Assembly (NCBI GenBank): GCA_964482035.1
Contig: CAYZVC010000004.1
Span: 19,572 to 83,571 of the forward strand
Direction: 5' to 3'
Source: an uncultured Candidatus Peribacteria bacterium
GTDB lineage: Bacteria > Patescibacteriota > Gracilibacteria > BD1-5 > UBA2023
Length of the DNA: 64,000 nt
A model generated the notes under the pieces. It ran no database searches. It saw only the letters and a list, made by a program, of their open reading frames with translations, and was not told where the DNA came from. The first letter of the stretch is position 1; every line of letters starts with the position of its first letter. This document shows, in pieces, positions 16,067-55,955 of the stretch. The translations under genes were made by a program, and so were the position numbers.

Positions 16067-16121
16067 CCAAAATCGCTTGATATCCGGGGATTTTCCCTAT
16101 AATGGCCGGGCTAATCCGCCT

Positions 16122-16195
16122 GGCGCCCTGGTAGAGCGGTTATACAGCGGCCTGCAAAGCCGTGGAGAGCGGTTCGACTCCGCTGGGTGCCTCCA
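16122..16195 (+). tRNA. tRNA-Cys (anticodon GCA), CCA encoded
   Basis: Acceptor GGCGCCC/GGGTGCC, anticodon arm GCGGC-CTGCAAA-GCCGT, T arm AGCGG-TTCGACT-CCGCT, discriminator U73 (Cys identity element), then CCA. Confidence 0.85.
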
Positions 16196-16206
16196 AACTG
16201 ATTCTG

Positions 16207-16238
16207 AAAACCTCCTCGTGTAAACGGGGAGGTTTTTC
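16207..16238 (+). terminator. intrinsic terminator after tRNA-Cys
   Basis: AACCTCC...GGAGGTT stem followed by TTTTT. Confidence 0.6.
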
Positions 16239-16583
16239 TGAAGCAGAATTCGGGATTCCCGATGGAGTCGAATAGAGGGTCGAGCGAGCCATGGATAGGC
16301 TTCTTGCGTACTGGGAATGGGTTGGCGAGCGAAGAGGGCGTGCCTAGTATGGCACGCCCGACCCGGCCCGTCTCCCGGAGCGGAGCCGGCAGGTGGAGCG
16401 TGAGGGAACGATGACTGGAGCCCATGTCGGATATACGAAAGAAAATCTAAGAAATACTCATGAAAAACAATTTTGATGCGAGCTCGGATAAGGTATACTC
16501 CGTCCGCTTTGCATAAAGGAGAAAGGCTATTCCCGCTTCGTATGAAATCTGGGAATGTCCTGTCGCAATTCTTTCAAATTTCC

Positions 16584-18926
16584 ATGGACAAAAGAAATCT
16601 CTCGGAATCCGACATTTGCTCAAAATTCATCACGCCGGCCCTTCATGAAGCCTCTTGGCAAGAATCCCAGATTCGCCGGGAGGTTTCTTTTACGAAAGGG
16701 CGGATTAAAGTGAAATGAAAAACCGTTTCTCGCGGGGAGACAAAGCGCGCGGATTACATCCTGCACCATGCGAACCATCTCCCGATAGCCATCGTAGAAG
16801 CCAAAGACAACTGCCATTCCATCGGGGACGGTATGCAACAGGCTCTCGGTTATGCAGAAACGCTCGACATTCCGTTCGTGTATTCATCAAACGGCGACGG
16901 CTTCCTTGAGCACGATAGGACGAAAAAAACCTGAACGGTCGAACGGGAACTTCGCATGGACGAATTCCCCACTCCCGACGAGCTGTACCGCCGTTACCGG
17001 GTCGCCAAGGGGTTCGATGAAGAAATCGAAAAAACGGTAATGGAGCCGTATTACGAGGACGTTAGCGGAAAGGGTCCGCGCTATTATCAGCAAATCGCCA
17101 TCAACAGAACAATCGAAGCAGTCGCGAAAGAACAGGATCGTATCCTCCTCGTCATGGCGACCGGTACTGGAAAAACGTACACCGCTTTCCAAATCATCTG
17201 GCGTCTCTAGAAAGCGCGCAAGAAAAAACGAATCCTCTTCCTTGCGGACAGGAACATCCTCGTCGACCAGACGATTACGAACGATTTTAAACCGTTCGGC
17301 GATAAAATGGCTAAGATCGAGAACCGCAAAGTAGATACTTCGTACGAAATCTACCTCGCCCTCTACCAAGGCCTCACCGGCGGTGAAGAGGACAAGAACG
17401 TCTTCAAACAGTTCTCGCCGGGCTTTTTCGACCTCATCGTCATCGACGAGTGCCACAGGGGCAGCGCGAGGGAAAACAGCGAATGGCGGGCCATTCTCGA
17501 CTATTTCAAAGGCGCTACACAAATCGGTCTTACCGCGACCCCGAAAGAGACTGAAGACGTATCGACGCATACGTATTTTGGAGACCCTATTTATACATAT
17601 TCGCTCAAACAGGGCATAGAAGACGGTTTTCTTGCACCGTACAAAGTGGTTCGCGTCTGAATGGATGTGGACGAAGGCTGGAGACCTTACAAAGGGCAGC
17701 TCGATTATTACGGCGCCGAGATTCCGGACAAAGTATACGAGCTTGGGGATTTCGACCGGAACATCGTCATCCGGGAGCGTACCGAAGCCGTTGCCAAGAA
17801 AATCAGCGAGTATCTCAAAGCGACAGACCGATATTCAAAAACCATCGTCTTTTGCGTGGATATCGACCATGCCGAACGTATGCGCCAAGCCCTCGTGAAC
17901 GAAAACGCGGACGAGGTCGCGAAGAATCCGAAATACGTAATGCGCATCACGGGCGATAACGAAGAAGGCAAAATGGAGCTCGACAATTTCATCGATCCGA
18001 AAGAACGATACCCCGTCATCGCCACGACCTCGAAACTCCTCACCACCTGAGTGGACGCGCAGACGTGCCGGGTTATCGCCCTCGATGCCATCATCAACTC
18101 GATGACGGAATTCAAGCAGATCATCGGTCGCGGAACCCGCATCAACGAAACCTACGGCAAATACTACTTCACCATCCTCGACTTCCGTAAGGCGACGAAC
18201 AAGTTCGCGGATCCAGATTTCGACGGCGAACCCGTCGTAATCTACAAACCCAAACCCGACGAACCGGTCGACGGCGGCGATGTCTGAACCGTTTGAGACG
18301 AAGACGATGGAAACGGCGGATGAACCGTAATCATCGGGGACGGTACGGGAGGATGAGCCGGTGGAGGACAGAAGAAGATCATGGTCCGCTGAGTGCCCGT
18401 GAGTGTTTCCCAGGAACGGGTCCAATACATCGGACCGGACGGCAAACTCATTACCGAGAGTCTCAAGGACTACTCGAAAAAGAACATCCTCTCGGCATAT
18501 GCGAGCCTAGACGATTTCCTGAACGAATGGAACCACGTCGAACAGAAGCTCGCCGTAGTATCCGCATTGGAAGAAAAGGGCGTATTCTTCGAGGACATGC
18601 AAAAGGAAGTCGGACAAGATTACGATCCGTTCGACATGGTGTGCCACCTGGCGTACGACCGTCCGCCGCTCACTCGCAAACAACGGGCGGACAAAGCGAA
18701 AAAATCCGACTATTTCTCCAAATACGGGGAACAGGCGAAAGAAGTGTTGAACATGCTTCTCGAAACATATGCGGACCGTTGAATCGGTGCGATAGAAGAC
18801 ATGGGCATTCTCACCGTCAGTCCGCTCTCGCGCCTTGGAAAACCCGTAGAAATCGTCACGCTTTTCGGAGGAAAGGCCCAATACAAGGCAGCACTTAGAG
18901 AGCTCGAAGCCGCTATTTACCAATAA
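16584..18926 (+). CDS. hsdR: type I restriction enzyme R subunit (HsdR), carrying one in-frame TAG (possible pseudogene)
   Basis: Pieces 16473-16718, 16956-17210, 17307-17660, 17661-18050, 18051-18287 and 18393-18782 are all in one frame; PD-(D/E)x[29 protein letters not shown] (TGA), EcoEI-R-like C-terminus; about 10 TGA=Gly; TAG at 17208-17210 in [20 protein letters not shown]. Confidence 0.85.
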
Positions 18927-18943
18927 GAAATCCTAAAGGAACC

Positions 18944-20371
18944 ATGTCTAATATTTCCGCGATCGTAAAATCCATTCAAGACACTATGCGCAAGGATGCC
19001 GGGGTCGACGGCGACGCCCAGCGCATCGGCCAAGTATCTTGGATGCTCTTTTTGAAAATTCTCGACGATCAAGATCGTAACCTCGAAGTCATTCTCGACG
19101 ACTACGTTTCCCCCGTGCCCGAGGATTGCCGTTGGGGCAATTGGGCAGCCAACAAAGAAGGGATGACGGGTGACGAGCTCGTGGAATTCGTTAACGAAAC
19201 CCTCTTCAAGAAACTCCGCAGCCTCCCTTATGACGCGAATCGTCCGATGACCGGGATTATCCGCGGCGTTTTTGAGGACTCGTTCAATTATATGAAATCG
19301 GGAACGCTCCTTAGGCAGGTAATCAATAAGATCGGCGAAATCGACTTCAGCAAGAAAACCGAACTCCACGTCTTCAACGACATCTACGAAAAAATCCTGA
19401 GCGATCTCCAATCCGCGGGGAACGCCGGGGAATACTACACCCCCCGTTCGGTTACTCAGTTTTTAGTAGACATGGCGGATCCGAAACTCGGCGAGACCGT
19501 TCTTGACCCTTCCTGCGGCACGGGCGGCTTTCTTACTTGCGCCATCGAGCATATCCGCAAGAACGGCGTACATGAACGCAAGGACGAAGAAACTCTTCAA
19601 AAATCCATCCGCGGAATAGAACTCAAACAGCTTCCGCACCTTCTCGCAACGACCAATCTCATTCTCCACGGTATCGAATGCCCCTCGGGACTCCGTCACG
19701 ACGACACACTTTCGCGTCCGCTCAAAGACTACGGCCCCGAAGATGCGGTAGACGTAATCGTCACGAATCCGCCCTTTGGCGGACAGGTAAAACCCGGCAT
19801 CATTCACAACTTTCCAAGTCAGTTCCAGACTGCGGAAACGTCGTTTTTATTCATGGTGCTCATCATCAATCTGCTTAAATCCGGAGGACGTGCCGGTGTG
19901 GTATTGCCGGATGGCTTCCTCTTCGGCGAAGGCGTGGCCACCCGCATCAAGGAAAAACTCCTTTCCGACTGCAACCTCCATACCGTCGTCCGCTTGCCGA
20001 ACGGGGTATTCAACCCGTATACCGGCATCACGACCAACCTCCTCTTCTTCACGAAAGGCGAACCGACGAAGGAAGTCTGGTATTTCGACCACCCGCTTCC
20101 GGCGGGTATCAAGAATTACAGCCGATCGAACCCGCTCCGTATCGAGGAATTCGATTTGGAAAAATCCTGGTGGAACGACCGGAAGGAAACCGGAAACGCC
20201 TGGAAGGTCGGCATCGACGAAATCAAGGCGAGAGATTACAATCTCGACATTAAGAACCCGAATCGGAAGGAAGAGAAAGAAATCTTGGATACGAAAGAAC
20301 TCATCGACGCTATCGAGGCGAATTTCAAGGAAGCGGCGGCAATTTTGGAGAAAATTAAGACGAGCGTGTAA
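18944..20371 (+). CDS. hsdM: type I R-M N6-adenine DNA methyltransferase subunit M
   Basis: Intact 475-aa ORF; GEYYTPR, DPSCGTGGFL, NPPFGG motifs; no TGA. Confidence 0.95.
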   Translation: MSNISAIVKSIQDTMRKDAGVDGDAQRIGQVSWMLFLKILDDQDRNLEVILDDYVSPVPEDCRWGNWAANKEGMTGDELVEFVNETLFKKLRSLPYDANRPMTGIIRGVFEDSFNYMKSGTLLRQVINKIGEIDFSKKTELHVFNDIYEKILSDLQSAGNAGEYYTPRSVTQFLVDMADPKLGETVLDPSCGTGGFLTCAIEHIRKNGVHERKDEETLQKSIRGIELKQLPHLLATTNLILHGIECPSGLRHDDTLSRPLKDYGPEDAVDVIVTNPPFGGQVKPGIIHNFPSQFQTAETSFLFMVLIINLLKSGGRAGVVLPDGFLFGEGVATRIKEKLLSDCNLHTVVRLPNGVFNPYTGITTNLLFFTKGEPTKEVWYFDHPLPAGIKNYSRSNPLRIEEFDLEKSWWNDRKETGNAWKVGIDEIKARDYNLDIKNPNRKEEKEILDTKELIDAIEANFKEAAAILEKIKTSV

Positions 20372-20372
20372 T

Positions 20373-21695
20373 ATGGAAATGCAAACGGTAAAGATAGGCG
20401 ATCTGCTCAAAAGGCGAAAAACGCCAGTACCCATTCTTGACGATAGCCTTTACAGGCGCGTGACCATTCGGATGAATAAACAAGGGGCTGTAAAGAGGGA
20501 TGAGGTTCTTGGAAAGGACATCTGAACAAAACAACAATTCCTCGTCAAGGAAGGCGACTTCCTGATATCCAAAATCGATGCGAGAAATGGGGCTTTCTGA
20601 CTGGCCTCAAAAGATCTCGACGGCTCAATTATTACGTGAAGCTTTCTCGCATTTGAGATTAATACGGGGATCGTCGACCGGGAATATTTCATTTCTTTTG
20701 TCAATTCCTGAGAGTTTCAGGACATATGCAGAAGAAACAGTTCGGGCACGACGAACAGAAAAAATGTCGATGAGACGAAATTTTTAGATGCCGAAATCAC
20801 GGTTCCCGTTTCGATCGAAGATCAGAAAAGGATCGCGAACAAAGTGGGCCACTTGAACGGAATGATGGTTGCCGCAAGGAGCGAGCTGGAGGCTGCGGGC
20901 GAATGAATCAAAAACCTCCGCTCCTCCATCCTCCAAGACGCCATCCAAGGAAAACTCGTGCCGCAAAACCCTTCCGACGAACCGGCCAGCGTACTTTTGG
21001 AGCGGATACGGAAAGAGAAGGAAACGCTCGCGAAAACCGGAAAGATCAAGAAGCAAAAGAACCTCCCGCCGATTTCGCCGGAAGAGGTGCCTTTCGAGTT
21101 ACCGAAGGGGTGGGCATGGGTGAGGCTATGAGAAATACTCACCTACGTTCAACGTTGACCATCCGCTATTTACGCAGAACTGAGTGAAGTTGAGATAATT
21201 AATCAAAAATGCATCCAATGGAGTGGATTGGATTTACACGTAACGAAATACTACAAGACGGATCTAATATCAAAGTTGGATGAATGTCGTTTTATTAGAA
21301 GTAACGACATACTTTTAAACTCAACCGGAACATGAACTATTTGAAGGTGCCTTTTGGTGAATCAAATAAAAGAAAGAACATATATTGCCGACAGTCACGT
21401 AACCATACTAAGATCGTACATTTCAAACAGTTACATCAATCTATTCCTACGAACCCCGAGGATCCAAGGTCTCATAAACGGGGTTGGCTGATCCACGAAT
21501 CAAATAGAATTGAGCAAGGCCATGATTGAATCCCTCCCGATCCCCGTACCACCCATGTCGGAACAGATTCGTATTATCGCAAAAGTTAGTGAACTAATAT
21601 CCGATTGCGACAAGTTGGGAAAAACAGCCGAACGATCATTAAAAAACAGCGAAAAATTACTGGAAAGCAGTTTGGTCAAAGTCTTTAAAAACTAA
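20373..21695 (+). CDS. hsdS: type I R-M specificity subunit S
   Basis: Starts 1 nt after the hsdM stop; 10 in-frame TGAs fall on G in SSGTTNRK-type, VRL-G-EI, NSTGT-G-TI-G-R and G-STNQIELS contexts; two TRDs plus the conserved central and C-terminal helices. Confidence 0.9.
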
Positions 21696-21701
21696 TGCCA
21701 T

Positions 21702-23690
21702 GTGCCCGTGTCAACCAATTTCGTTCTTTGAACTTCCGACGAATTCATAAAGCGCAAGTACTGCAAGGATATTGGGAAAGCCATATCTGAACTGGTTTGG
21801 AATTCGCTAGATGCCAATGCGACTAAGGTAAAGATCTCTTTTGGAAAGGGGTGATTGTTTTGAGAGGGCGAATATTCAGTAATTCGAGACGTCATCATCG
21901 AGGACAACGGTGATGGGATTGACCTGATTGACGTCAATGGTGCATTCACGCACTTATGAAAATCATCGAAAGTTAAATGAATGAAGAATAGGAGCGGTCG
22001 TTTCGTGCACTGAAAGAACGGCGAATGACGGGCCTATACGATAGGACTTTGAGGAAAAACGACCTGGGAAAGCCGGTATTTAGATAAGATTCAGGATAAA
22101 GCCTTCTCGTTTTCGATCTCAAATTCCAGCTCATTAAGAAATTTTTCCGTATCGGATCAAATCGAAACCTCGAACAAAGAGACCTGAGTTACGGTGAAAG
22201 TTACCGAAATAAACGATGAGATCGCGAAACAAATCGACCTTAGAAAACTGAAACAGGTGCTTCTGCTTGAATTCGCACATTATCTCAAGACTTATGAGAA
22301 GGATGGCATCGAAATCGAGGTAGATGGCGAAATTCTCAATATCTCTGACGCACTGGCTTCCTCACCAAAAGAAGTCGATTTTTCCGCAAGAAATCCAACT
22401 GACAATAACTCATATCAGTTCAAGCTCGCCATATACCATTGGAAAGATAAATGAGTCCATGCCCGTTATTTCGTAAATTCGGATTTTTCAATCATACACG
22501 AAGACGGCAATACCTGAGTCACTAGAAAGGACTTCTGACATTCCATCTACATTTCCGGAGCCGTGATCGAGGAAAAGGCGAACGTTTTTCAACTTTTCAC
22601 CTCCGAACCTTTCTTCGCCCATATCAGCGATGCTGCGAAGGAAAAAATAGAAGGGTATTATCGCGAGTATTTCAAAAAGGAGATCGCCCCGACGATAGAA
22701 GCCTTCAAAAAGGCTGGAGTGTACCCTTATAAGGACACGCCTGATACGCCGGTGGAGAAGGACGAACGCATGGTCTTCGACGCATGCTTATTTGCGATAT
22801 CCTCCAATTCCGAAAAATTCCACAAGGATAGCGCCGAGTCTAAAAAAATAATGCTCAACCTACTGAAGGAGGCCATAGAGAAGGATGCCACTTCTATCAT
22901 TCCAATCTTCCAGAGCGTCCTGAATCTTCCACAAGACGAGATAAATGATTTGATCGAGCTCATAGATGAATACTCTTTATCCTACGTTATCAAACTGTCG
23001 AGAATCATTACCGACAAGCTCTCTTTGATCGAGGAATTGGGTCTTCTTATTCAAGATCCCGAATTTAAAGGCAAAACCCTTGAAAGGAAACATCTCCATA
23101 GGATACTCGAACGAGAGCTGTGGATTTTCTGAGATGGGTATACCGAATGAACGAGCGACAGAACGATGAAGGACGTACTGAAGACGCATATAAGGTTACT
23201 CGGAAGAGAAGACCTGATCGACGAAGCAGCACTATCCTCCGTTTCCAACGATAGGCCAGATCTTTTTATTTACAGGCAGTACCCGCAAACAAGGGAAAGC
23301 CACTTTGAACACCTTGTGGTCGAACTTAAAAGACCGTCGTTGAAACTTACGACAAATGAGCTTTCACAAATCGAAGACTATGCCGATCAGGTGTCTGAAG
23401 ATGCAAGGTTCGACAAGGAATCAGTCAAGTGGAAATTCATCCTAATCGGAGATGACATGGATTCCCAAGTCAGACGGAGAATCAATCAAAAAGGTTTTCC
23501 CGAAGGATGTTCAATGTTACAGGATAACTATGAAGTCTGGGTATATAGTTGGGCGAAACTCTTGCAAAATCTTCGCTGGAAATACCAATTCCTCAAACAG
23601 AAACTGGATAGCGAATCTTCGCAGAATCCGAGGGATTTCAAATACTTGAAGAGAACGTTTCCCGAGATTGTGGATGCGGTAAATCCTTAA
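21702..23690 (+). CDS. GHKL-type ATPase fused to a Shedu/DUF4263-like PD-(D/E)xK nuclease domain (candidate defence protein)
   Basis: One frame (GTG 21702 to TAA 23688-23690) with about 14 TGA=Gly; Bergerat motifs AISELVWNSLDANA and EDNGDGID, then G-KSSKVK-G...GRFVH-G-KNGE-G-R; C-terminus LHRILERELWIF-G-DGY...RPDLFIYR...HLVVELKRP...QIEDYADQV. Confidence 0.7.
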
Positions 23691-23712
23691 TTCATCAATA
23701 ACCGCTTATCAA

Positions 23713-24036
23713 ATGGCAACAAAAAAGGAAATGGTGGACAAGGCACTATCCCATGTAAAGAATTTCGAATCGATCAAAGGACTTGTAACCATCGTGGAAC
23801 TGAAGGATGGAAAAACTGTAGTCAACCAGCGCGCCATGTATCGATGATCGAAATACACTAAAAGGGATTGGTGTTTCAGAACAGTCAGTGCAGTTATCAG
23901 AAATAATCCGTTCGACGAGACTCGTCCGAGCGTTTTCCAGATGAATCTGGACATTTCTAATATCAAAAGTCTAAGGGTGATTGCTAGCGATCAAGAGATT
24001 CGAGGCAATTCAACCGGCATCTCTGAGCGTAAGTAA
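23713..24036 (+). CDS. small hypothetical protein (107 aa)
   Basis: ATG 23713 to TAA 24034-24036 with one in-frame TGA (23845-23847); missed by the ORF track because it is split; competes with antisense ORF 23709-23966. Confidence 0.4.
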
Positions 24037-24054
24037 GACATATGCGACAACTCA

Positions 24055-24088
24055 AAAACCCCCTTTTCTTTTCGAGAAGGGGGTTTCA
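24055..24088. terminator. bidirectional intrinsic terminator
   Basis: AACCCCCTT / AAGGGGGTT stem flanked by an A-run and a T-run, between convergent genes. Confidence 0.65.
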
Positions 24089-24107
24089 GTAATGAGGGCT
24101 CGCTATT

Positions 24108-24641
24108 TTACACCGGAATGCTCATGGAACCATTACCAGATTCCCGAACAAATCTAACCATTTCTGTTTTAGTCTCGTTAAACTCGATATACAGGCCAAA
24201 TTTATACCCGAGTTGAACGGTGTACTCCGTTATCTTTCGTTTATCAAAATCCCGATAGGTCTCGCCTGATTTACGAGTGGCATCAGCATATTTTTTCTTC
24301 TTAACCTCTATAATAAGCAAATTTTTTTGATTCCCAGTCCTGTCATGCACTATTATGTCTGGAAATACTGTCGTTCACTTTTCATCGGTAGAATCGGTAT
24401 CTTCGACATCCAAATTAAGGCGCTTGGCCATAAAATGGCCATCTTCATCAACCTGGTACATTTTGTTGTATTCGCAATCGATGTCATACCCAGGGAAAAG
24501 ATCGACTATAAATTCCGCTAATTTATGGGTAATCGACCTTTCGTTCACATCCTGGCATAACAAAAATTTCTCTTTCACGGTAAATTGCCGAACACGGTCT
24601 TCTACGTCTTCCCAAGTAAATTCCACATCTTGTGATGTCAT
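24108..24641 (-). CDS. PD-(D/E)xK nuclease-fold protein (177 aa)
   Basis: Pieces 24108-24350 and 24375-24641 are in frame and joined by TGA; ERSITHKLAEF...VFPDIIVHDRTGNQKNLLIIEVKKK (D...ExK pattern). Confidence 0.6.
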
Positions 24642-24714
24642 GCGTTGATGTTCAATAGAGATAGAGCGAACACAATCCAGCTAACGATTAATCAATCCAG
24701 GATACTGGCAGCCA

Positions 24715-25591
24715 CTATTTTGGATTGATTATAACTTTGACGGCCTTTCACGGTTTTGATTGCCCCTCCAAATCTTGGATAAGTCACTTTTTATTCCGAA
24801 CGTAATCCCCTTTGTCGTAAATAAAGACCAAAAGGGTGCGATAACTCGGGTGCTGGTTGTACCTGACTATGTCAATGGCGATTTGTTCACCCAACTCTTT
24901 ATCTTTCAATTTCTCAGAAGCCATTTTCGTCTCAATGATGATCCCCTCTTCGGGCAAGACCATATCTATTCTCGAATTTCATCATGCGCTACTTGGCGAA
25001 TAGTCCTCCGCTCTCACATCTCAATAAAACATTTTCAATACAGATCTCAGTAAATCCTGAACATCATATTCGTCACTTATGGACAAGGTCTCCCTATTTG
25101 CATGCCTATATCTCAGCTCTTGAGCGCATTTGTGAAATCATTCGCATAAACTAGCAATATGCGCAAGGGCGTCCTTTTCCTCATTCTCGTAAACTTCTTC
25201 GTTAATAGGGATAAGATCGGCCTTGTTTAGCAAGATTTCCAATATGTATCTTCTTCTTTATGTCGTCCTTAAGGTCTTTGATCTTCTCGGATAGGTAGAT
25301 TTCGCGGTATCATCATACAAACACCATTCAAATCGATTCGTATTCCTCAAGATACGGATTCTCTTGATAGCTGTAACTCACCTTAAGAAATTCCCTGTTC
25401 CAATGGTCCCATTTTGAGTATTTTTGTTTCAATTCTTCAAGCTCCTCCTCTCGACGAATCTCTTCGTCGTATAAATCACGTCAGGAGTTGATTCGATCTT
25501 TGATAGTCTGCTTGAATTTCTCCTTTGGGATTATAAGTCTTGCGGGTCAATACATCTCAGAAACCGTCGGTGCCGTCCTCACTTTAGCCAT
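24715..25591 (-). pseudogene. coiled-coil plus PD-(D/E)xK nuclease gene split over two overlapping frames (frameshifted, or two genes)
   Basis: Frame A 25591-25202 (MAKVRT...KKKIHIGNLAKQGRSYPY*) overlaps frame B 25242-24715 (LEILLNKADLIP...DEYDVQDLLRSVL...SRIDMVLPEEGIIIETK...LLVFIYD); skipping one base near 25243 would give ...KKKIHIEILLNKADL... Confidence 0.45.
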
Positions 25592-25874
25592 ATGATTTCG
25601 CTTTAGTCATGTAATTAGGACCAATGTGATTCATTTTTACCGGTCGCATTTAGGTAAACACACTTTACCTAAAAAATCTGAAATAACACACGGTACTGAA
25701 TCAGCGCTATAAAGCCTTCTTGGAATTCTCCACGAAAGTTCGAAGATTACGACCCTTTAAGACCTCCAAGAACAATCAAAATCCCCCTGTCCGCAAGGAT
25801 GGGGGGATTTTCGTGCCAAAGCGCCATAATCGAGTAAAATCCATAGTAGGAATACGATTCCCTCTCTTCCGAAC

Positions 25875-26447
25875 ATGCCATTTTCCAAAGCATTCCCCGA
25901 TACATGGAACGAAGCTGTTGCCGAATTGTCTGCCTCGATGCGTTTCTCCGATTTTCCCTACAATCGAAATATTTCGTTTTTCAAAGCTTTCGTAAATGGA
26001 CGGGAATTTGAAATCCCTCAAAGGATCACGTTCGATCAGTTGGACGATACGCCCTTGGATAAGGAAAGCGCTACGATTTACGCTTGCATGCTCTCTCGAC
26101 ACGTCGACGGACACCTGAGGGGAGAATGAGCGAAACTCCTTGCTCTCCACGAAGAGGACTGGATCATGCCATACGTTTTGCGCTTAATCGGAGAATACGT
26201 ACCGGGAATATCGGCCGTACTTCTCCAAGGCATTGGAAGATTCAATCCGAAAGAATTGAACTCCTTCCTGAAAGCCAACCCCGAGCTCTACGAACTCGTC
26301 CAAAGGCAGGCAATAAGCTATCACAACGAATACTACCGAGAAATTCCACTGACGGAATATCCGCCATTTTTAGCATTGAAACGCATTTCCGAGGTTGGAA
26401 AAATACCGCTTTCCCGAAAAGTTTTCTCAGTAAACAACATCAATTAA
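25875..26447 (+). CDS. hypothetical protein (190 aa)
   Basis: Pieces 25875-26129 and 26166-26447 are in frame and joined by TGA 26127-26129; TAA stop. Confidence 0.55.
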
Positions 26448-26466
26448 GACCCCCCTCATTTCCCAT

Positions 26467-26496
26467 TTGACTTAAAGCACTTTAAGTTATTAGACT
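26467..26496 (+). promoter_or_regulatory. MerR-type promoter/operator (TTGACT, dyad, TAGACT)
   Basis: TTGACT 26467-26472 and TAGACT 26491-26496 with an 18-nt spacer containing the dyad ACTTAAAG-CA-CTTTAAGT (26470-26487), just upstream of the merR-family gene. Confidence 0.5.
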
Positions 26497-26522
26497 GTGC
26501 GCAGGTATTTCCGAAACCTCCC

Positions 26523-26963
26523 ATGCGCCGATATTCCATCAAAGAAACCGCCGAGCTCAGCGGACTCCCCGAAAGCACCCTCCGCTACTACGAAACCATG
26601 GGTCTCATCGGCCCCATAGAGCGCGACGGGAGCAGCAAGCACCGCACGTACGGCGAAGACGACGTGAACCTCATCGTGGGGATCGCGTGTTTGAGCGCGA
26701 CCGGGATGTCGATCGCGGACATGCGGAAATACCTGGACAACTTCCGATCCGGAAAGGACGCCGCCAAAGAACAGAAGTCGCTTTTGGAAACGCAGAAGAA
26801 ACTCCTTGCGAAAGAAGCCGAATCCGTCGTGCTCCGGCAAAAATACGTAGACGTGAAAATCGCCTACTGGAGCGCCGTGGAAGCCGGAGACGAAGCCGCG
26901 AAGAACGCCGCGTCCGAAAAGGCGTGGCAACTGGCGGCGAAGCTGAAGAATTCGAAAAAATAA
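26523..26963 (+). CDS. MerR-family transcriptional regulator (AdhR/NmlR-like)
   Basis: [32 protein letters not shown]; conserved Cys in [12 protein letters not shown]; coiled-coil C-terminus. Confidence 0.9.
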
Positions 26964-43714: not shown

Positions 43715-43740
43715 GGAAAAACCCCCGTTCGAACGGGGGT
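43715..43740 (-). terminator. intrinsic terminator
   Basis: CCCCCGTTC/GAACGGGGG palindrome followed (minus strand) by TTTTT. Confidence 0.7.
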
Positions 43741-43750
43741 CGATTTCACT

Positions 43751-44848
43751 TTAGGAAATTCCGTAATCCTTGCGTAATTTCTCAATAACCGATTTCGCCA
43801 TGAGGTACTTGTGCGAAGTTTTCCAACTGCCGTCGGTCTTGCCTCAGAACGTTTCCGGTTCGTTTTCGAGCATTTCGAGCATTTTCGACGAGGGTACGAG
43901 TTCGACCGCGTCGATTTCGCGACGGTCGAAACCGGTAACCTCGCCGCGGAATTCGAACGCGTACACGTCGACGCGTTCGTTGTTGTCCTCGACGATTTCG
44001 CGTCCTTCTTTGTTCTTTTTCGTGACGGAAGCGTACGGGGCGTTGAATTCTACGAGTTTCAAAGCCGGGACCTCGGGAAGGAGGGAATCGAAATCGATGA
44101 CGCCCGAAGCCGAAACCGTGGGAATGCGTTCAGTCCGTTCGAGACGGATGCCGGTCTCCTCTTCGATTTCACGGAGCACCGAGGTGAACGAAACGTATTT
44201 CCTGAGCCCCGGATTCACCGAGCCGTCGGCCGGGTACGCATTGGAACCGTTTCCTGGCGCGGCGGGGATTTCGGAAACCGCGTACCCCACGTGCCCGCCT
44301 CAAAGCCTTTGCCAATGCGCTTTGCCGGTGGCCGATTTCTCAGCGGAACGCTTGCCCATGTAGATGCCGATGTCGCCGATGTCGCGGTACGCGTCGGGAT
44401 TTACGGCCCAATAGTGGGTGGAAATATGGCCTATCCCTTCTTCGTGGGCGACTTTTCGGTCGACGAGGCGAGAAGTGAGTCGGCCCTTGGAATCGATTTC
44501 CGGGAGGTACTCGACCCTTTTTTCCGCGAGGGCATTCAAAACCCCGTCCAAAACCGCGGTTCGGACCGATTGGAGGTCGGGAGATTTACGAAACGCCTCG
44601 AAAAGGGCGCGATCGCTGAAAGAAAGCGTTTTTACGGGCTTCCCGTCTTGCGAGAACACGACGTTCGAAGTTCCGTCCACATAACCGCCGAGCACGGTAT
44701 AGAAAGGGAAATTTTTGACCGTTCCGTCCTCGAAGCGCGCTTGGACGCCATGGAAATTCGGACCTCATCAAAATCCCTCGCCGATGCCGATGCGGCAGTC
44801 GGTGGATTCGGTGACGAGAATATGGGAATCGGTCGCGTTATGGCTCAT
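43751..44848 (-). CDS. NUDIX-family hydrolase with an N-terminal extension
   Basis: Pieces 43844-44290 and 44300-44695, plus upstream, share one frame via TGAs (including a tandem TGA-TGA in GEGF-GG-GPN); Nudix box ...LREIEEETGI. Confidence 0.7.
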
Positions 44849-55860: not shown

Positions 55861-55885
55861 GATGCCCCTTTCAGGTAACGATCCC

Positions 55886-55920
55886 AAACCCTCTTCTCGC
55901 AAGGAAGAGGGTTTTATTTC
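55886..55920 (+). terminator. riboswitch expression-platform terminator
   Basis: CCCTCTTC-TCGCAAG-GAAGAGGG followed by TTTTATTT. Confidence 0.75.
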
Positions 55921-55955
55921 GCCGCGCCACCGGGGCGCGACCACCTATCCACACC

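What the first reader, a model, noticed from the sequence alone, without database searches (positions are those of the whole stretch)
21702..23690. GHKL ATPase fused to a Shedu-like (DUF4263-type) nuclease: candidate single-gene defence system
The 662-aa protein opens with Bergerat-fold motifs (ELVWNSLDANA, DNGDGI and Gly-rich lid loops built from TGA codons). It has a helical middle of about 300 aa. It ends with LHRILERELWIF-G-DGY ... RPDLFIYR ... HLVVELKRP ... QIEDYADQV, which I recognise as the PD-(D/E)xK core and its preceding helix from Shedu/DUF4263 nucleases. Shedu nucleases are known to carry variable N-terminal sensor domains. I am not aware that a MORC-like GHKL clamp as that sensor, immediately downstream of a type I R-M system, has been characterised.
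Basis: partly seen in the sequence, partly recalled or inferred. Interest (0 to 1): 0.65.

Follow-up and report, generated by a model that had tools for sequence, protein, structure and literature searches.

The report
GHKL ATPase–nuclease defence gene (paraMORC3)
This gene encodes one protein that joins a MutL/MORC-type ATPase to a DNA-cutting domain, a kind of anti-phage enzyme that was predicted in 2008 and shown to work in Vibrio cholerae in 2025, so this is a new copy of a known system, found here in a bacterium that reads TGA as glycine.

Summary
Bases 21702-23690 (+) form one 662-codon frame with 14 in-frame TGA codons and no TAA or TAG. Those TGA codons align with glycines in standard-code homologues, five of them at (near-)invariant Gly and none at Trp, so the code is 25.

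The protein has four parts: a GHKL ATPase (Pfam HATPase_c_3, 4.4e-13), an S5/transducer-like domain, a helical linker of about 190 aa, and a C-terminal PD-(D/E)xK nuclease with invariant E461, D520, E541-x-K543 and Q556-xxx-Y560.

It belongs to a large, full-length-conserved family:
- at least 1,390 cluster representatives at E ≤ 1e-30;
- at least 577 loci in species-representative genomes across many phyla;
- 49 plasmids.

The architecture is published as paraMORC3 (2008) and as type 1D Shedu (2023). One protein of this architecture, VcSduA, was shown in 2025 to need both its ATPase and its nuclease for defence.

The specific "DUF4263" label is only weakly supported here. HSDR_N_2 is the best Pfam match, SduA models hit a minority of family members, and the nearest solved folds are NucS/EndoMS and MspJI rather than SduA.

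Family genes recurrently abut or sit inside type I hsd operons (9 of 80 genome loci), including a 75%-identical Gracilibacteria orthologue. Verdict: new member of a known kind, low-to-moderate interest.

The parts
21702..23690 (+). Whole gene: a 662-aa GHKL ATPase-nuclease of the paraMORC3 / VcSduA-like architecture, read with genetic code 25. The start is GTG 21702 (GTG 21708 is the alternative) and the stop is TAA 23688-23690.
   Evidence: frame, 14 TGA codons, no TAA/TAG; full-length homologues; TGA = Gly.
21702..22211 (+). GHKL (Bergerat-fold) ATPase domain, aa ~1-170. Motif I is E30-xxx-N34-xx-D37 (21789-21812). Motif II is D68-x-G70-x-G72 (21903-21917). The ATP lid is G104-xx-G107-x-G109-R110 (22011-22031). 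Motif IV is T-G162-V (about 22182-22190).
   Evidence: Pfam HATPase_c_3 4.4e-13 over aa 26-140; MutL 1.1e-4 and family-profile hits to MutL, MORC2 and Topo VI-B; invariant residues; model and residue mapping.
22239..22556 (+). S5/transducer-like alpha/beta middle domain, aa ~180-285. It is probably what Gu et al. call 'N24'; that equation is an inference.
   Evidence: AlphaFold model of homologue P0001, strands 202-281, mapped to the window protein. Foldseek alignments of 313-385 columns to the MutL 40-kDa N-terminal fragment and to MORC3/4 ATPase cassettes, which span GHKL plus transducer. Invariant W247.
22560..23132 (+). Helical linker/clamp region, aa ~287-477. It contains the invariant Y341-P342 and E461 and ends with the LHRILERELWIFG helix.
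   Evidence: Helices 283-474 in the model; conservation; mapping.
23142..23669 (+). C-terminal PD-(D/E)xK (RecB-like, E-D-ExK-QxxxY) nuclease domain, aa ~481-656. Catalytic residues are D520 (23259-23261), E541 (23322-23324) and K543 (23328-23330), with Q556 and Y560 (23367-23381). E461 (23082-23084) on the preceding helix is also invariant.
   Evidence: Invariant columns in 20- and 74-sequence alignments. C-terminal model with pLDDT 84.7. Foldseek hits to NucS/EndoMS 7.7e-4, MspJI, FokI, HamA, Cap4 and LmuA. Pfam HSDR_N_2 in 41 of 52 C-terminal domains. PADLOC SduA in 4 of 52.
16584..18926 (+). Context: hsdR (type I restriction subunit) of the operon that the gene terminates. It is interrupted by an in-frame TAG at 17208-17210.
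   Evidence: Pfam ResIII 2.1e-45, EcoEI_R_C 1e-29 and HSDR_N_2. The TAG replaces a Trp that is present in the homologues aligned.
18944..20371 (+). Context: hsdM (type I N6-adenine methyltransferase).
   Evidence: Pfam N6_Mtase 1.5e-74 and HsdM_N 7.1e-15.
20373..21695 (+). Context: hsdS (specificity subunit). Its TAA stop lies 6 nt before the start of the GHKL-nuclease gene.
   Evidence: Pfam Methylase_S 1.8e-19, two stretches; coordinates.

Best explanation
The gene encodes a single-polypeptide, ATP-gated defence nuclease with the paraMORC3 architecture, the class the literature now calls GHKL-type (type 1D / I-D) Shedu, whose tested example is V. cholerae VcSduA.

Shown here:
- An intact GHKL ATPase with all nucleotide-binding motifs.
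- An S5/transducer-like domain and a helical linker.
- An intact PD-(D/E)xK nuclease.
- Conservation of all of these across a very large family that sits in defence islands.

Inferred from how MutL, MORC and topoisomerase ATPases work, and from published VcSduA mutants:
- ATP binding dimerises the GHKL domains.
- Together with the middle domains they form a clamp around a DNA (or protein) ligand.
- The ATP-hydrolysis cycle licenses the C-terminal nuclease to cut invading DNA.
- Protection is direct rather than abortive.

In this genome the gene is probably co-transcribed as the last gene of a type I hsdR-hsdM-hsdS operon. It is written in code 25, with 14 of its 38 Gly codons being TGA. It was probably acquired from a lower-GC code-25 relative.
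For: - Frame and code.
- GHKL domain.
- Nuclease motifs and fold.
- Family size and full-length conservation: 1,390 representatives at E <= 1e-30, with the best 150 all 638-828 aa and matched end to end; at least 577 loci in species-representative genomes; 49 plasmids.
- Defence context: next to Gabija-like OLD-TOPRIM + UvrD genes, inside a type I operon beside an SLFN_AlbA_2 gene, and next to NB-ARC/TPR genes. A complete hsdM+S+R set lies within 8 kb in 9 of the 80 genome loci, plus L082 which was fetched separately.
- Window neighbours include a REase_DpnII-MboI domain protein (1.5e-44).
- Literature: paraMORC3 is GHKL + S5 + a C-terminal RE-fold nuclease with E-D-ExK motifs (PMC2292703). 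HATPase_c_3 + N24 + DUF4263 is type 1D Shedu (bioRxiv 2023.08.10.552793). VcSduA protects against T1-like phages at all MOIs tested, and both E27A and K557A abolish protection (PMC12137116).
- Acquisition: a 75%-identical orthologue with 20 TGA codons lies in a 33%-GC Gracilibacteria MAG. The gene is about 43% GC in a 56%-GC window.
Against: - No experiment exists on this protein or on any code-25 member.
- I could not obtain the VcSduA sequence, so direct homology of this family to VcSduA is inferred from architecture only. The Glu-to-Lys spacing in VcSduA (27 to 557, i.e. 530) lies just outside the 471-521 range of 278 sampled family members.
- SduA/DUF4263 models match only a minority of family members and not the window protein.
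- Solved SduA structures are not the nearest fold.
- Co-transcription with hsd rests only on the 6-nt gap. The promoter and terminator scans were uninformative, with counts equal to shuffles.
Confidence: 0.8

Rival explanations
1. The protein is not autonomous. It is an accessory or alternative restriction subunit of the adjacent type I R-M system. It would use the methylation state set by HsdMS, or contact with HsdMS, to decide what to cut. In this genome it could stand in for the truncated HsdR.
For: - The gene starts 6 nt after hsdS.
- Family genes lie on the same strand directly abutting or inside type I hsd operons in L001, L008, L015, L017, L023, L032, L045, L079 and L082.
- Two Gracilibacteria carry orthologues behind unrelated hsd operons: HsdM is only 29% identical and the gene order differs.
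- hsdR here carries an in-frame TAG.
- Iyer et al. proposed that paraMORCs work within R-M systems.
Against: - About 88% of sampled genome loci have no type I genes within 8 kb.
- Iyer et al. note that paraMORC3 proteins with the nuclease domain are mostly stand-alone genes.
- VcSduA protects on its own when moved into E. coli.
- hsdR is full-length in L001 (937-aa ORF) and matches full-length in L015, L057 and L079, so replacing HsdR cannot be the general role.
- Type I operons are well-known docking sites for unrelated defence genes, for example the SLFN_AlbA_2 gene in L082.
Confidence: 0.1
2. It is a housekeeping DNA-repair enzyme: a MutL-like ATPase fused to a NucS/EndoMS-like mismatch endonuclease, rather than a defence protein.
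For: The best sequence and fold matches of the N-terminus are MutL. The best fold matches of the C-terminus are EndoMS/NucS (5gke 7.7e-4, 2vld 1.2e-3). Some database records name family members 'DNA mismatch repair protein'.
Against: - The distribution is patchy across phyla, on plasmids and in low-GC islands, not universal within lineages.
- Neighbours are R-M, Gabija-like and NB-ARC genes.
- There is no MutS partner in the contexts inspected.
- The published protein of this architecture acts against phage.
- The NucS match covers only the generic PD-(D/E)xK core, 131-154 columns at TM 0.35-0.37.
Confidence: 0.03
3. The frame is a dead gene or an artefact: a standard-code organism with a pseudogene riddled with TGA stops.
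For: Under table 11 the frame has 14 stops.
Against: - All 14 interruptions are TGA and none is TAA or TAG.
- They fall on Gly positions of homologues, five of them (near-)invariant.
- Every catalytic residue is intact.
- TGA-sense reading lengthens ORFs across the whole window.
- The orthologue in a Gracilibacteria MAG has 20 in-frame TGA codons in an equally intact 662-codon frame.
Confidence: 0.01

Closest known systems
paraMORC3 family (Iyer, Abhiman & Aravind 2008, Biol Direct 3:8; PMC2292703)
   Same: It has an N-terminal GHKL ATPase with intact motifs, an S5-type middle domain, and an extra conserved C-terminal restriction-endonuclease-fold domain with E-D-ExK motifs and RecB-like affinities (here E461, D520, E541-x-K543 plus Q556xxxY560). 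Its distribution is sporadic and laterally mobile, and it is prominent in Bacteroidota and Pseudomonadota. It is linked to R-M loci in some genomes and stand-alone in others.
   Different: This copy is in a candidate-phylum (Gracilibacteria-like) genome and is written in code 25. Iyer et al. stressed SF2-helicase and methylase neighbourhoods and stand-alone genes. The recurrent placement at the end of, or inside, type I hsd operons seen here is not spelled out in the passages I read.
VcSduA, the GHKL-type type I-D Shedu of Vibrio cholerae WASA VSP-II (Adams et al. 2025, Nat Microbiol; PMC12137116)
   Same: It is a single protein with an N-terminal GHKL ATPase carrying motifs I-IV, a clamp-like middle domain and a C-terminal PD-(D/E)xK nuclease. 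It is of comparable size. The catalytic Glu of motif I sits at about position 27-30, and many family members have it at exactly 27. It lies in a defence island. The authors themselves equate this architecture with paraMORC3.
   Different: I could not obtain its sequence, so homology is untested. The motif I Glu to ExK Lys spacing is 530 residues in VcSduA against 513 here and 471-521 in sampled family members. VcSduA is reported to carry a recognisable DUF4263 domain, whereas the window protein gives no SduA or DUF4263 hit. VcSduA sits beside GrwAB, not beside a type I R-M system.
Canonical Shedu SduA (B. cereus type 1A, E. coli SduA; Pfam PF14082 SduA_C/DUF4263)
   Same: It is a single-gene defence nuclease with a C-terminal PD-(D/E)xK domain regulated by a variable N-terminal module. 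There is a weak sequence signal: PADLOC SduA hits 9 of 74 members (best 3.5e-5) and Pfam SduA_C hits 3 of 52 C-terminal domains (best 0.004).
   Different: Canonical SduA has no ATPase, is a tetramer or octamer, and senses DNA ends or single-stranded nucleic acid. Here the nuclease domain is closer to HSDR_N_2 by HMM (41 of 52). The solved E. coli SduA structure is only the 47th fold hit (E = 0.94). Adams et al. report that a VcSduA tetramer was not supported by modelling.
MutL / MORC / Topo VI-B GHKL+transducer ATPases
   Same: The Bergerat fold, the ATP lid and the transducer-like second domain are shared. The expected mechanism, ATP-driven N-terminal dimerisation acting as a molecular clamp, is also shared.
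   Different: The C-terminal module differs: a PD-(D/E)xK nuclease rather than the MutL endonuclease/dimerisation domain. There is no MutS partner nearby, and the gene lies in a mobile island.

Membership tests
GHKL ATPase superfamily (Pfam HATPase_c_3 branch: MutL/MORC-like) | A Bergerat-fold profile match above the curated threshold. | tested here: met
   HATPase_c_3 scores 49.9 bits against a cut-off of 25, E = 4.4e-13, over aa 26-140. All 74 family members sampled match it.
GHKL ATPase superfamily (Pfam HATPase_c_3 branch: MutL/MORC-like) | Motif I (ExxxNxxD), motif II (DxGxG), the Gly-rich ATP lid (GxxGxG) and motif IV are all intact. | tested here: met
   E30, N34, D37, D68, G70, G104, G107, G109 and R110 are invariant in alignment A1 (20 sequences). 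G72 is present in at least 90% and G162 in 15 of the 19 homologues.
paraMORC3 (Iyer et al. 2008) | A GHKL domain followed by an S5-type (transducer) domain. | tested here: met
   The homologue model has a beta-rich domain at aa 178-281. Foldseek aligns 313-385 columns to the MutL 40-kDa fragment and to the MORC3/4 ATPase cassettes. This was tested on the 41%-identical homologue P0001, not on the window protein itself.
paraMORC3 (Iyer et al. 2008) | [quoted passage not shown] | tested here: met
   E461, D520, E541 and K543 are invariant. The C-terminal model matches PD-(D/E)xK nucleases. PADLOC Cas4 and Pfam HSDR_N_2 hits are consistent with RecB-like affinity.
paraMORC3 (Iyer et al. 2008) | Sequence membership, meaning clustering with the original paraMORC3 seed sequences. 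| not tested
   The seed accessions are in an additional file that is not held, so there was no direct comparison. Assignment rests on the two architectural features above.
Shedu (SduA; DefenseFinder/PADLOC definition) | A match of the protein to the DUF4263 / SduA_C profile (Pfam PF14082 or the PADLOC SduA HMMs). | tested here: not met
   The window protein has no SduA or SduA_C hit, either full-length or as the C-terminal domain, even at E <= 10. Across the family, Pfam SduA_C hits 1 of 74 full-length members (0.024) and 3 of 52 C-terminal domains (0.004). PADLOC SduA hits 9 of 74 (3.5e-5) and 4 of 52 (0.0023). HSDR_N_2 hits far more members.
Shedu (SduA; DefenseFinder/PADLOC definition) | The nuclease domain is structurally closest to solved SduA nuclease domains. 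| tested here: not met
   Foldseek of the C-terminal model against the PDB puts 8ps5_A (E. coli SduA) at rank 47, E = 0.94, TM 0.28. The best hits are 5gke and 2vld (NucS/EndoMS) and 4f0q (MspJI). The model is of homologue P0001.
Shedu (SduA; DefenseFinder/PADLOC definition) | Remote homology to DUF4263 by profile-profile comparison, the criterion used by Gu et al. ('deep sequence search') to include GHKL-fused proteins. | not testable with these tools
A family profile searched against PDB sequences found no SduA.
VcSduA-like type I-D Shedu (Adams et al. 2025) | Sequence homology to V. cholerae A1552VC_00276. | not testable with these tools
   The sequence is not held: Supplementary Table 7 was truncated when stored. 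No V. cholerae member appeared among the best 120 hits of a gammaproteobacterial family member. The Glu-to-Lys spacing of 530 lies just outside the family range of 471-521.
VcSduA-like type I-D Shedu (Adams et al. 2025) | Anti-phage activity that requires both the ATPase Glu and the nuclease Lys. | not testable with these tools
   This needs an experiment. The equivalent residues E30 and K543 are present and invariant.

The most novel reading that the evidence does not exclude
The repeated placement of this nuclease at the end of, or inside, type I hsd operons may reflect a functional partnership rather than island clustering. It was seen in 9 of 80 genome loci, and in two Gracilibacteria behind unrelated hsd operons. 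Under this reading the GHKL clamp-nuclease would read the methylation or translocation state created by HsdMS(R) and act as a second, ATP-gated cutter. Here it could even back up an hsdR that carries a premature TAG.
Probability: 0.1. Interest if true: 0.6.

Novelty: new member of a known kind. Interest (0 to 1): 0.25.

Why it matters
As a defence system it adds little. The architecture was predicted in 2008, catalogued within Shedu in 2023 and validated in V. cholerae in 2025.

Three modest points of value remain:
- It is a clean, internally controlled demonstration that this genome decodes TGA as glycine, with TGA at invariant catalytic-lid glycines. It also shows that a horizontally moving defence gene circulates among code-25 bacteria already recoded, which limits exchange with standard-code hosts and phages.
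- The family called GHKL-type Shedu is much larger than the 278 type 1D instances listed by Gu et al. (at least 1,390 clusters at 50% identity, at least 577 species genomes). Standard SduA/DUF4263 models mostly miss it, so PADLOC-style annotation using those models will under-count it.
- Its recurrent insertion in type I R-M operons gives a concrete, testable hypothesis about coupling between the two systems.

Tried and rejected
- **Structure of the window protein itself.** I modelled the 41%-identical homologue P0001 instead, both full-length and as the C-terminal domain.
- **Full-length Foldseek.** It was dominated by GHKL hits and said nothing about the nuclease, so a C-terminal model was needed.
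- **PDB sequence search for SduA.** Profiles of the C-terminal domain with 17 and 52 sequences returned only a spurious TPR-repeat hit.
- **Transitive search for DUF4263 relatives.** A search with the C-terminal profile listed only truncated members of the same family, none annotated PF14082.
- **Getting the VcSduA sequence.** Supplementary Table 7 of PMC12137116 is truncated in the held copy. The Gu et al. preprint has no held supplements. The PD-T4-8 supplement gives only accession numbers. A search seeded with a Salmonella family member found several Vibrio species but no V. cholerae in the listed top 120. A scan for proteins with E27 and K557 found none.
- **Promoter and terminator scan of 16.0-26.6 kb.** Counts equalled the shuffled expectation, so it was uninformative.
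- **att-like direct repeats flanking the island at tRNA-Cys.** Only a 15-nt imperfect pair turned up, probably by chance.
- **Downstream genes as partners.** The ORF at 23713-24036 and the minus-strand genes beyond it have no counterpart near any of the 80 family loci, so I rejected them as partners.
- **Rejected readings.** A TGA-riddled pseudogene and TGA = Trp (code 4) are both excluded.
Full report
**1. What is in the sequence**

The stretch 21702-23690 on the + strand is a single 663-codon frame ending in TAA. Under the standard bacterial code it is broken 14 times, and every interruption is TGA, never TAA or TAG. Reading TGA as sense also lengthens ORFs across the whole 64-kb window.

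I aligned the TGA=Gly translation with 19 full-length homologues from standard-code organisms (653-694 aa, 25-41% identity).
- The TGA codons at residues 86, 104, 109 and 117 fall on invariant glycines.
- Residue 477 falls on a glycine present in 18 of 19 homologues.
- Over all 14 TGA positions the homologues have Gly in 52% of cells against a 5.5% background, and Trp in none.

The genome therefore uses code 25. The closest related locus found is in a Candidatus Gracilibacteria MAG.

No in-frame ATG is available at the 5' end. The start is GTG 21702 or GTG 21708, 6 nt after the TAA of the upstream hsdS.

**2. Anatomy of the protein**

*N-terminus.* Pfam HATPase_c_3 matches residues 26-140 at 4.4e-13, well above its cut-off. 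NCBIfam and PDB sequence searches give MutL, PMS1, MORC2 and Topo VI-B. The GHKL motifs are intact and conserved in the family:
- E30-xxx-N34-xx-D37;
- D68-x-G70-x-G72;
- the lid G104-xx-G107-x-G109-R110;
- T-G162-V.

Residue numbers below are P0001's; the window protein's are 2-5 higher up to ~575 and 0-1 higher beyond. The model shows:
- a GHKL domain (1-165);
- a beta-rich second domain (178-281);
- a run of long helices (283-475);
- an alpha/beta C-terminal domain (479-655).

Foldseek against the PDB aligned 313-385 columns to the MutL 40-kDa N-terminal fragment, to TRAP1/Hsp90 and to the MORC3/MORC4 ATPase cassettes. That span covers the GHKL domain plus its transducer/S5 domain.

*C-terminus.* The invariant residues are E461, D520, E541-x-K543, P545, Q556 and Y560. 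This is an E-D-ExK-QxxxY pattern, typical of RecB-like PD-(D/E)xK nucleases. That attribution is from my own knowledge, and it agrees with Iyer et al.. A separate model of the C-terminal 223 residues (pLDDT 84.7) matched PD-(D/E)xK nucleases. The best hits were EndoMS/NucS (7.7e-4 and 1.2e-3) and MspJI. FokI, Hachiman HamA, Can2, Cap4 and LmuA followed with weaker scores.

**3. Is the nuclease 'Shedu/DUF4263'?**

I tested this in several ways. The support is weak.
- The window protein hits no SduA model in Pfam or PADLOC, full-length or as the isolated domain. Its only C-terminal Pfam hit is HSDR_N_2 (0.013-0.053).
- Among 52 C-terminal domains of family members, HSDR_N_2 hits 41 (best 4.6e-6). 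SduA_C hits 3 (best 0.004), PDDEXK_9 hits 4 and VRR_NUC hits 4.
- PADLOC SduA hits 9 of 74 full-length members (best 3.5e-5) and 4 of 52 isolated domains. It is the most frequent PADLOC match for the isolated C-terminal domain, just ahead of Cas4.
- Family profiles searched against all PDB sequences do not find the solved SduA proteins.
- By fold, E. coli SduA (8ps5) is only rank 47 (E = 0.94).

The honest statement is that this is a PD-(D/E)xK nuclease of the RecB/HsdR-N-like part of the clan, with a faint and minority sequence signal towards DUF4263. A profile-profile test against DUF4263 could not be run here.

**4. The family and its contexts**

A profile of the 19 homologues found 13,458 cluster representatives at E <= 0.001 and 1,390 at E <= 1e-30. 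The best 150 are all 638-828 aa and are matched from about residue 5 to about residue 655.

They came from Bacteroidota, Planctomycetota, Bacillota, Pseudomonadota, Actinomycetota, Cyanobacteria, Paceibacterota and two Gracilibacteria MAGs. Forty-nine plasmids carry a member, always annotated just 'ATP-binding protein'.

Neighbourhoods are defence-like:
- a Gabija-like OLD-TOPRIM + UvrD pair next to P0001;
- NB-ARC/TPR and helicase genes next to the Streptomyces member;
- most strikingly, type I R-M genes.

An iterative HMM search of the 84 fetched loci found complete hsdM+hsdS+hsdR sets within 8 kb in 9 of the 80 genome loci, plus L082, which was fetched separately. In most of them the family gene is on the same strand and directly abuts the operon:
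- after hsdS in L015, as in the window;
- after hsdR in L001, L032 and L079;
- before hsdM in L008 and L017;
- between hsdR and hsdS in L023, L045 and L082.

L001, the Gracilibacteria orthologue, is 75% identical in protein and 69% in DNA over the gene only. It has 662 codons and 20 TGA codons. It sits behind an unrelated type I operon with a different gene order.

In the window, GC falls from about 56% (host) through about 52% (hsdR, hsdM) to about 42% from 20.5 to 26.5 kb. This segment contains hsdS, the GHKL-nuclease gene and several minus-strand genes, one of which has a REase_DpnII-MboI domain (1.5e-44). The whole block lies beside tRNA-Cys.

**5. Comparison with what is known**

[quoted passage not shown] They described E-D-ExK motifs and RecB-like hits, a sporadic distribution, prevalence in proteobacteria and bacteroidetes, and frequent occurrence as a stand-alone gene. 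The window protein meets every architectural criterion.

Gu et al. (2023) listed HATPase_c_3 + 'N24' (a GHKL-associated middle domain) + DUF4263 proteins among type 1D Shedu.

Adams et al. (2025) characterised VcSduA, a V. cholerae protein with this architecture.
- It protects E. coli against T1-like Drexlerviridae, and V. cholerae against phage X29.
- Protection holds at all MOIs tested, so it is direct rather than abortive.
- Protection is lost in the E27A (ATPase) and K557A (nuclease) mutants.
- The protein models as an entwined dimer with a clamp-like middle domain, not as a tetramer.
- The authors explicitly equate the architecture with paraMORC3.

I could not obtain the VcSduA sequence. 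Many family members do have the motif I Glu at exactly residue 27. However, the Glu-to-Lys spacing of VcSduA (530) is slightly beyond the 471-521 range seen in 278 family members. Identity of the two families is therefore likely but not proven.

**6. Mechanism**

What is shown: both enzymatic centres are intact and under family-wide constraint, and the gene lives in defence islands.

What is inferred from MutL/MORC/topoisomerase biochemistry and the VcSduA mutants: ATP-driven dimerisation of the GHKL domains closes a clamp formed with the S5-like and helical domains around DNA. The hydrolysis cycle then gates the PD-(D/E)xK nuclease so that foreign DNA is cut. How self is spared is unknown.

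The main rival, functional coupling to the adjacent type I system, is kept alive by the recurrent operon embedding. Three things argue against it as the general role:
- about 88% of sampled genome loci lack hsd genes nearby;
- HsdR is full-length in the other embedded loci I checked (L001, L015, L057, L079);
- VcSduA is autonomous when moved into E. coli.

I put this rival at about 0.1. A housekeeping repair role and a pseudogene reading are rejected.

**7. Verdict**

This is a new, code-25 member of a known kind, paraMORC3 / GHKL-type Shedu. Interest is low to moderate (0.25).

The useful by-products are a clean demonstration of TGA=Gly, evidence that current SduA models miss most of this large family, and the type I operon association as a testable lead.

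Noticed in passing
window 17208-17210 (within hsdR 16584-18926, +): hsdR is interrupted by a single in-frame TAG exactly where homologous HsdR proteins have a Trp (IIWRL*K here, IIWRLWK in L057 and CWRLWN in L015). This is a TGG-to-TAG change. The restriction subunit may be a pseudogene, a population variant or an assembly error, while hsdM and hsdS look intact.
   Followed up: partly
window 1-64000: The whole window decodes TGA as sense. With TGA read as sense, ORFs of 100 codons or more rise from 289 to 374 and the longest from 1,817 to 2,248 codons. At about 56% GC this is GC-rich compared with the related Gracilibacteria MAG locus L001 (33% GC). No suppressor or Gly-tRNA(UCA) lies among the three tRNAs found (Cys 16122-16195, Phe 43715-43783, Ala 55863-55936).
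   Followed up: partly
window 18944-21695: TGA usage is uneven within one operon. hsdM has 0 TGA among 36 Gly codons. hsdS has 10 of 30, the second hsdR ORF (17307-18926) 8 of 50, and the GHKL-nuclease gene 14 of 38. Together with the GC drop at about 20.5 kb, this suggests a mosaic operon, with hsdM possibly acquired more recently from a standard-code donor. The closest HsdM and HsdR found (58-60% identity) are in a Deltaproteobacteria MAG, L057.
   Followed up: partly
window 24715-25242 (-) and 25202-25624 (-): A 175-aa ORF matches the whole REase_DpnII-MboI domain (PF18742, 1.5e-44). It overlaps by 41 nt an upstream 140-aa ORF with no Pfam match. This may be one two-domain defence gene split by a frameshift, or two genes.
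   Followed up: no
window 24108-24641 (-): A 177-aa ORF with a weak TnsA-like PD-(D/E)xK endonuclease match (PF08722, E = 0.0013, below threshold). It is another candidate small nuclease in the low-GC island.
   Followed up: no
window 23713-24036 (+): A 107-aa ORF starts 22 nt after the GHKL-nuclease stop. It has no Pfam match and no counterpart near any of the 80 related loci, so it may not be a real gene.
   Followed up: partly
window 16122-26500: The defence block (type I R-M, GHKL-nuclease, REase-like genes) lies between tRNA-Cys and a MerR-family regulator gene (26523-26963). No integrase was seen. Only a 15-nt imperfect direct repeat (16089-16103 and 25950-25964) brackets it.
   Followed up: partly
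L082 6112-7512; L023, L045 and L082 generally: In several Bacteroidota-type loci the family gene sits between hsdR and hsdS. In L082 it sits there together with an SLFN_AlbA_2/HATPase_c_4 gene. These type I operons seem to act as docking sites for several unrelated ATPase defence genes.
   Followed up: no
family-wide: Public annotation of this large family is uninformative or misleading: 'ATP-binding protein', 'DNA mismatch repair protein', 'histidine kinase', or 'type I restriction enzyme HsdR N-terminal domain-containing protein' for fragments. None is labelled Shedu.
   Followed up: yes
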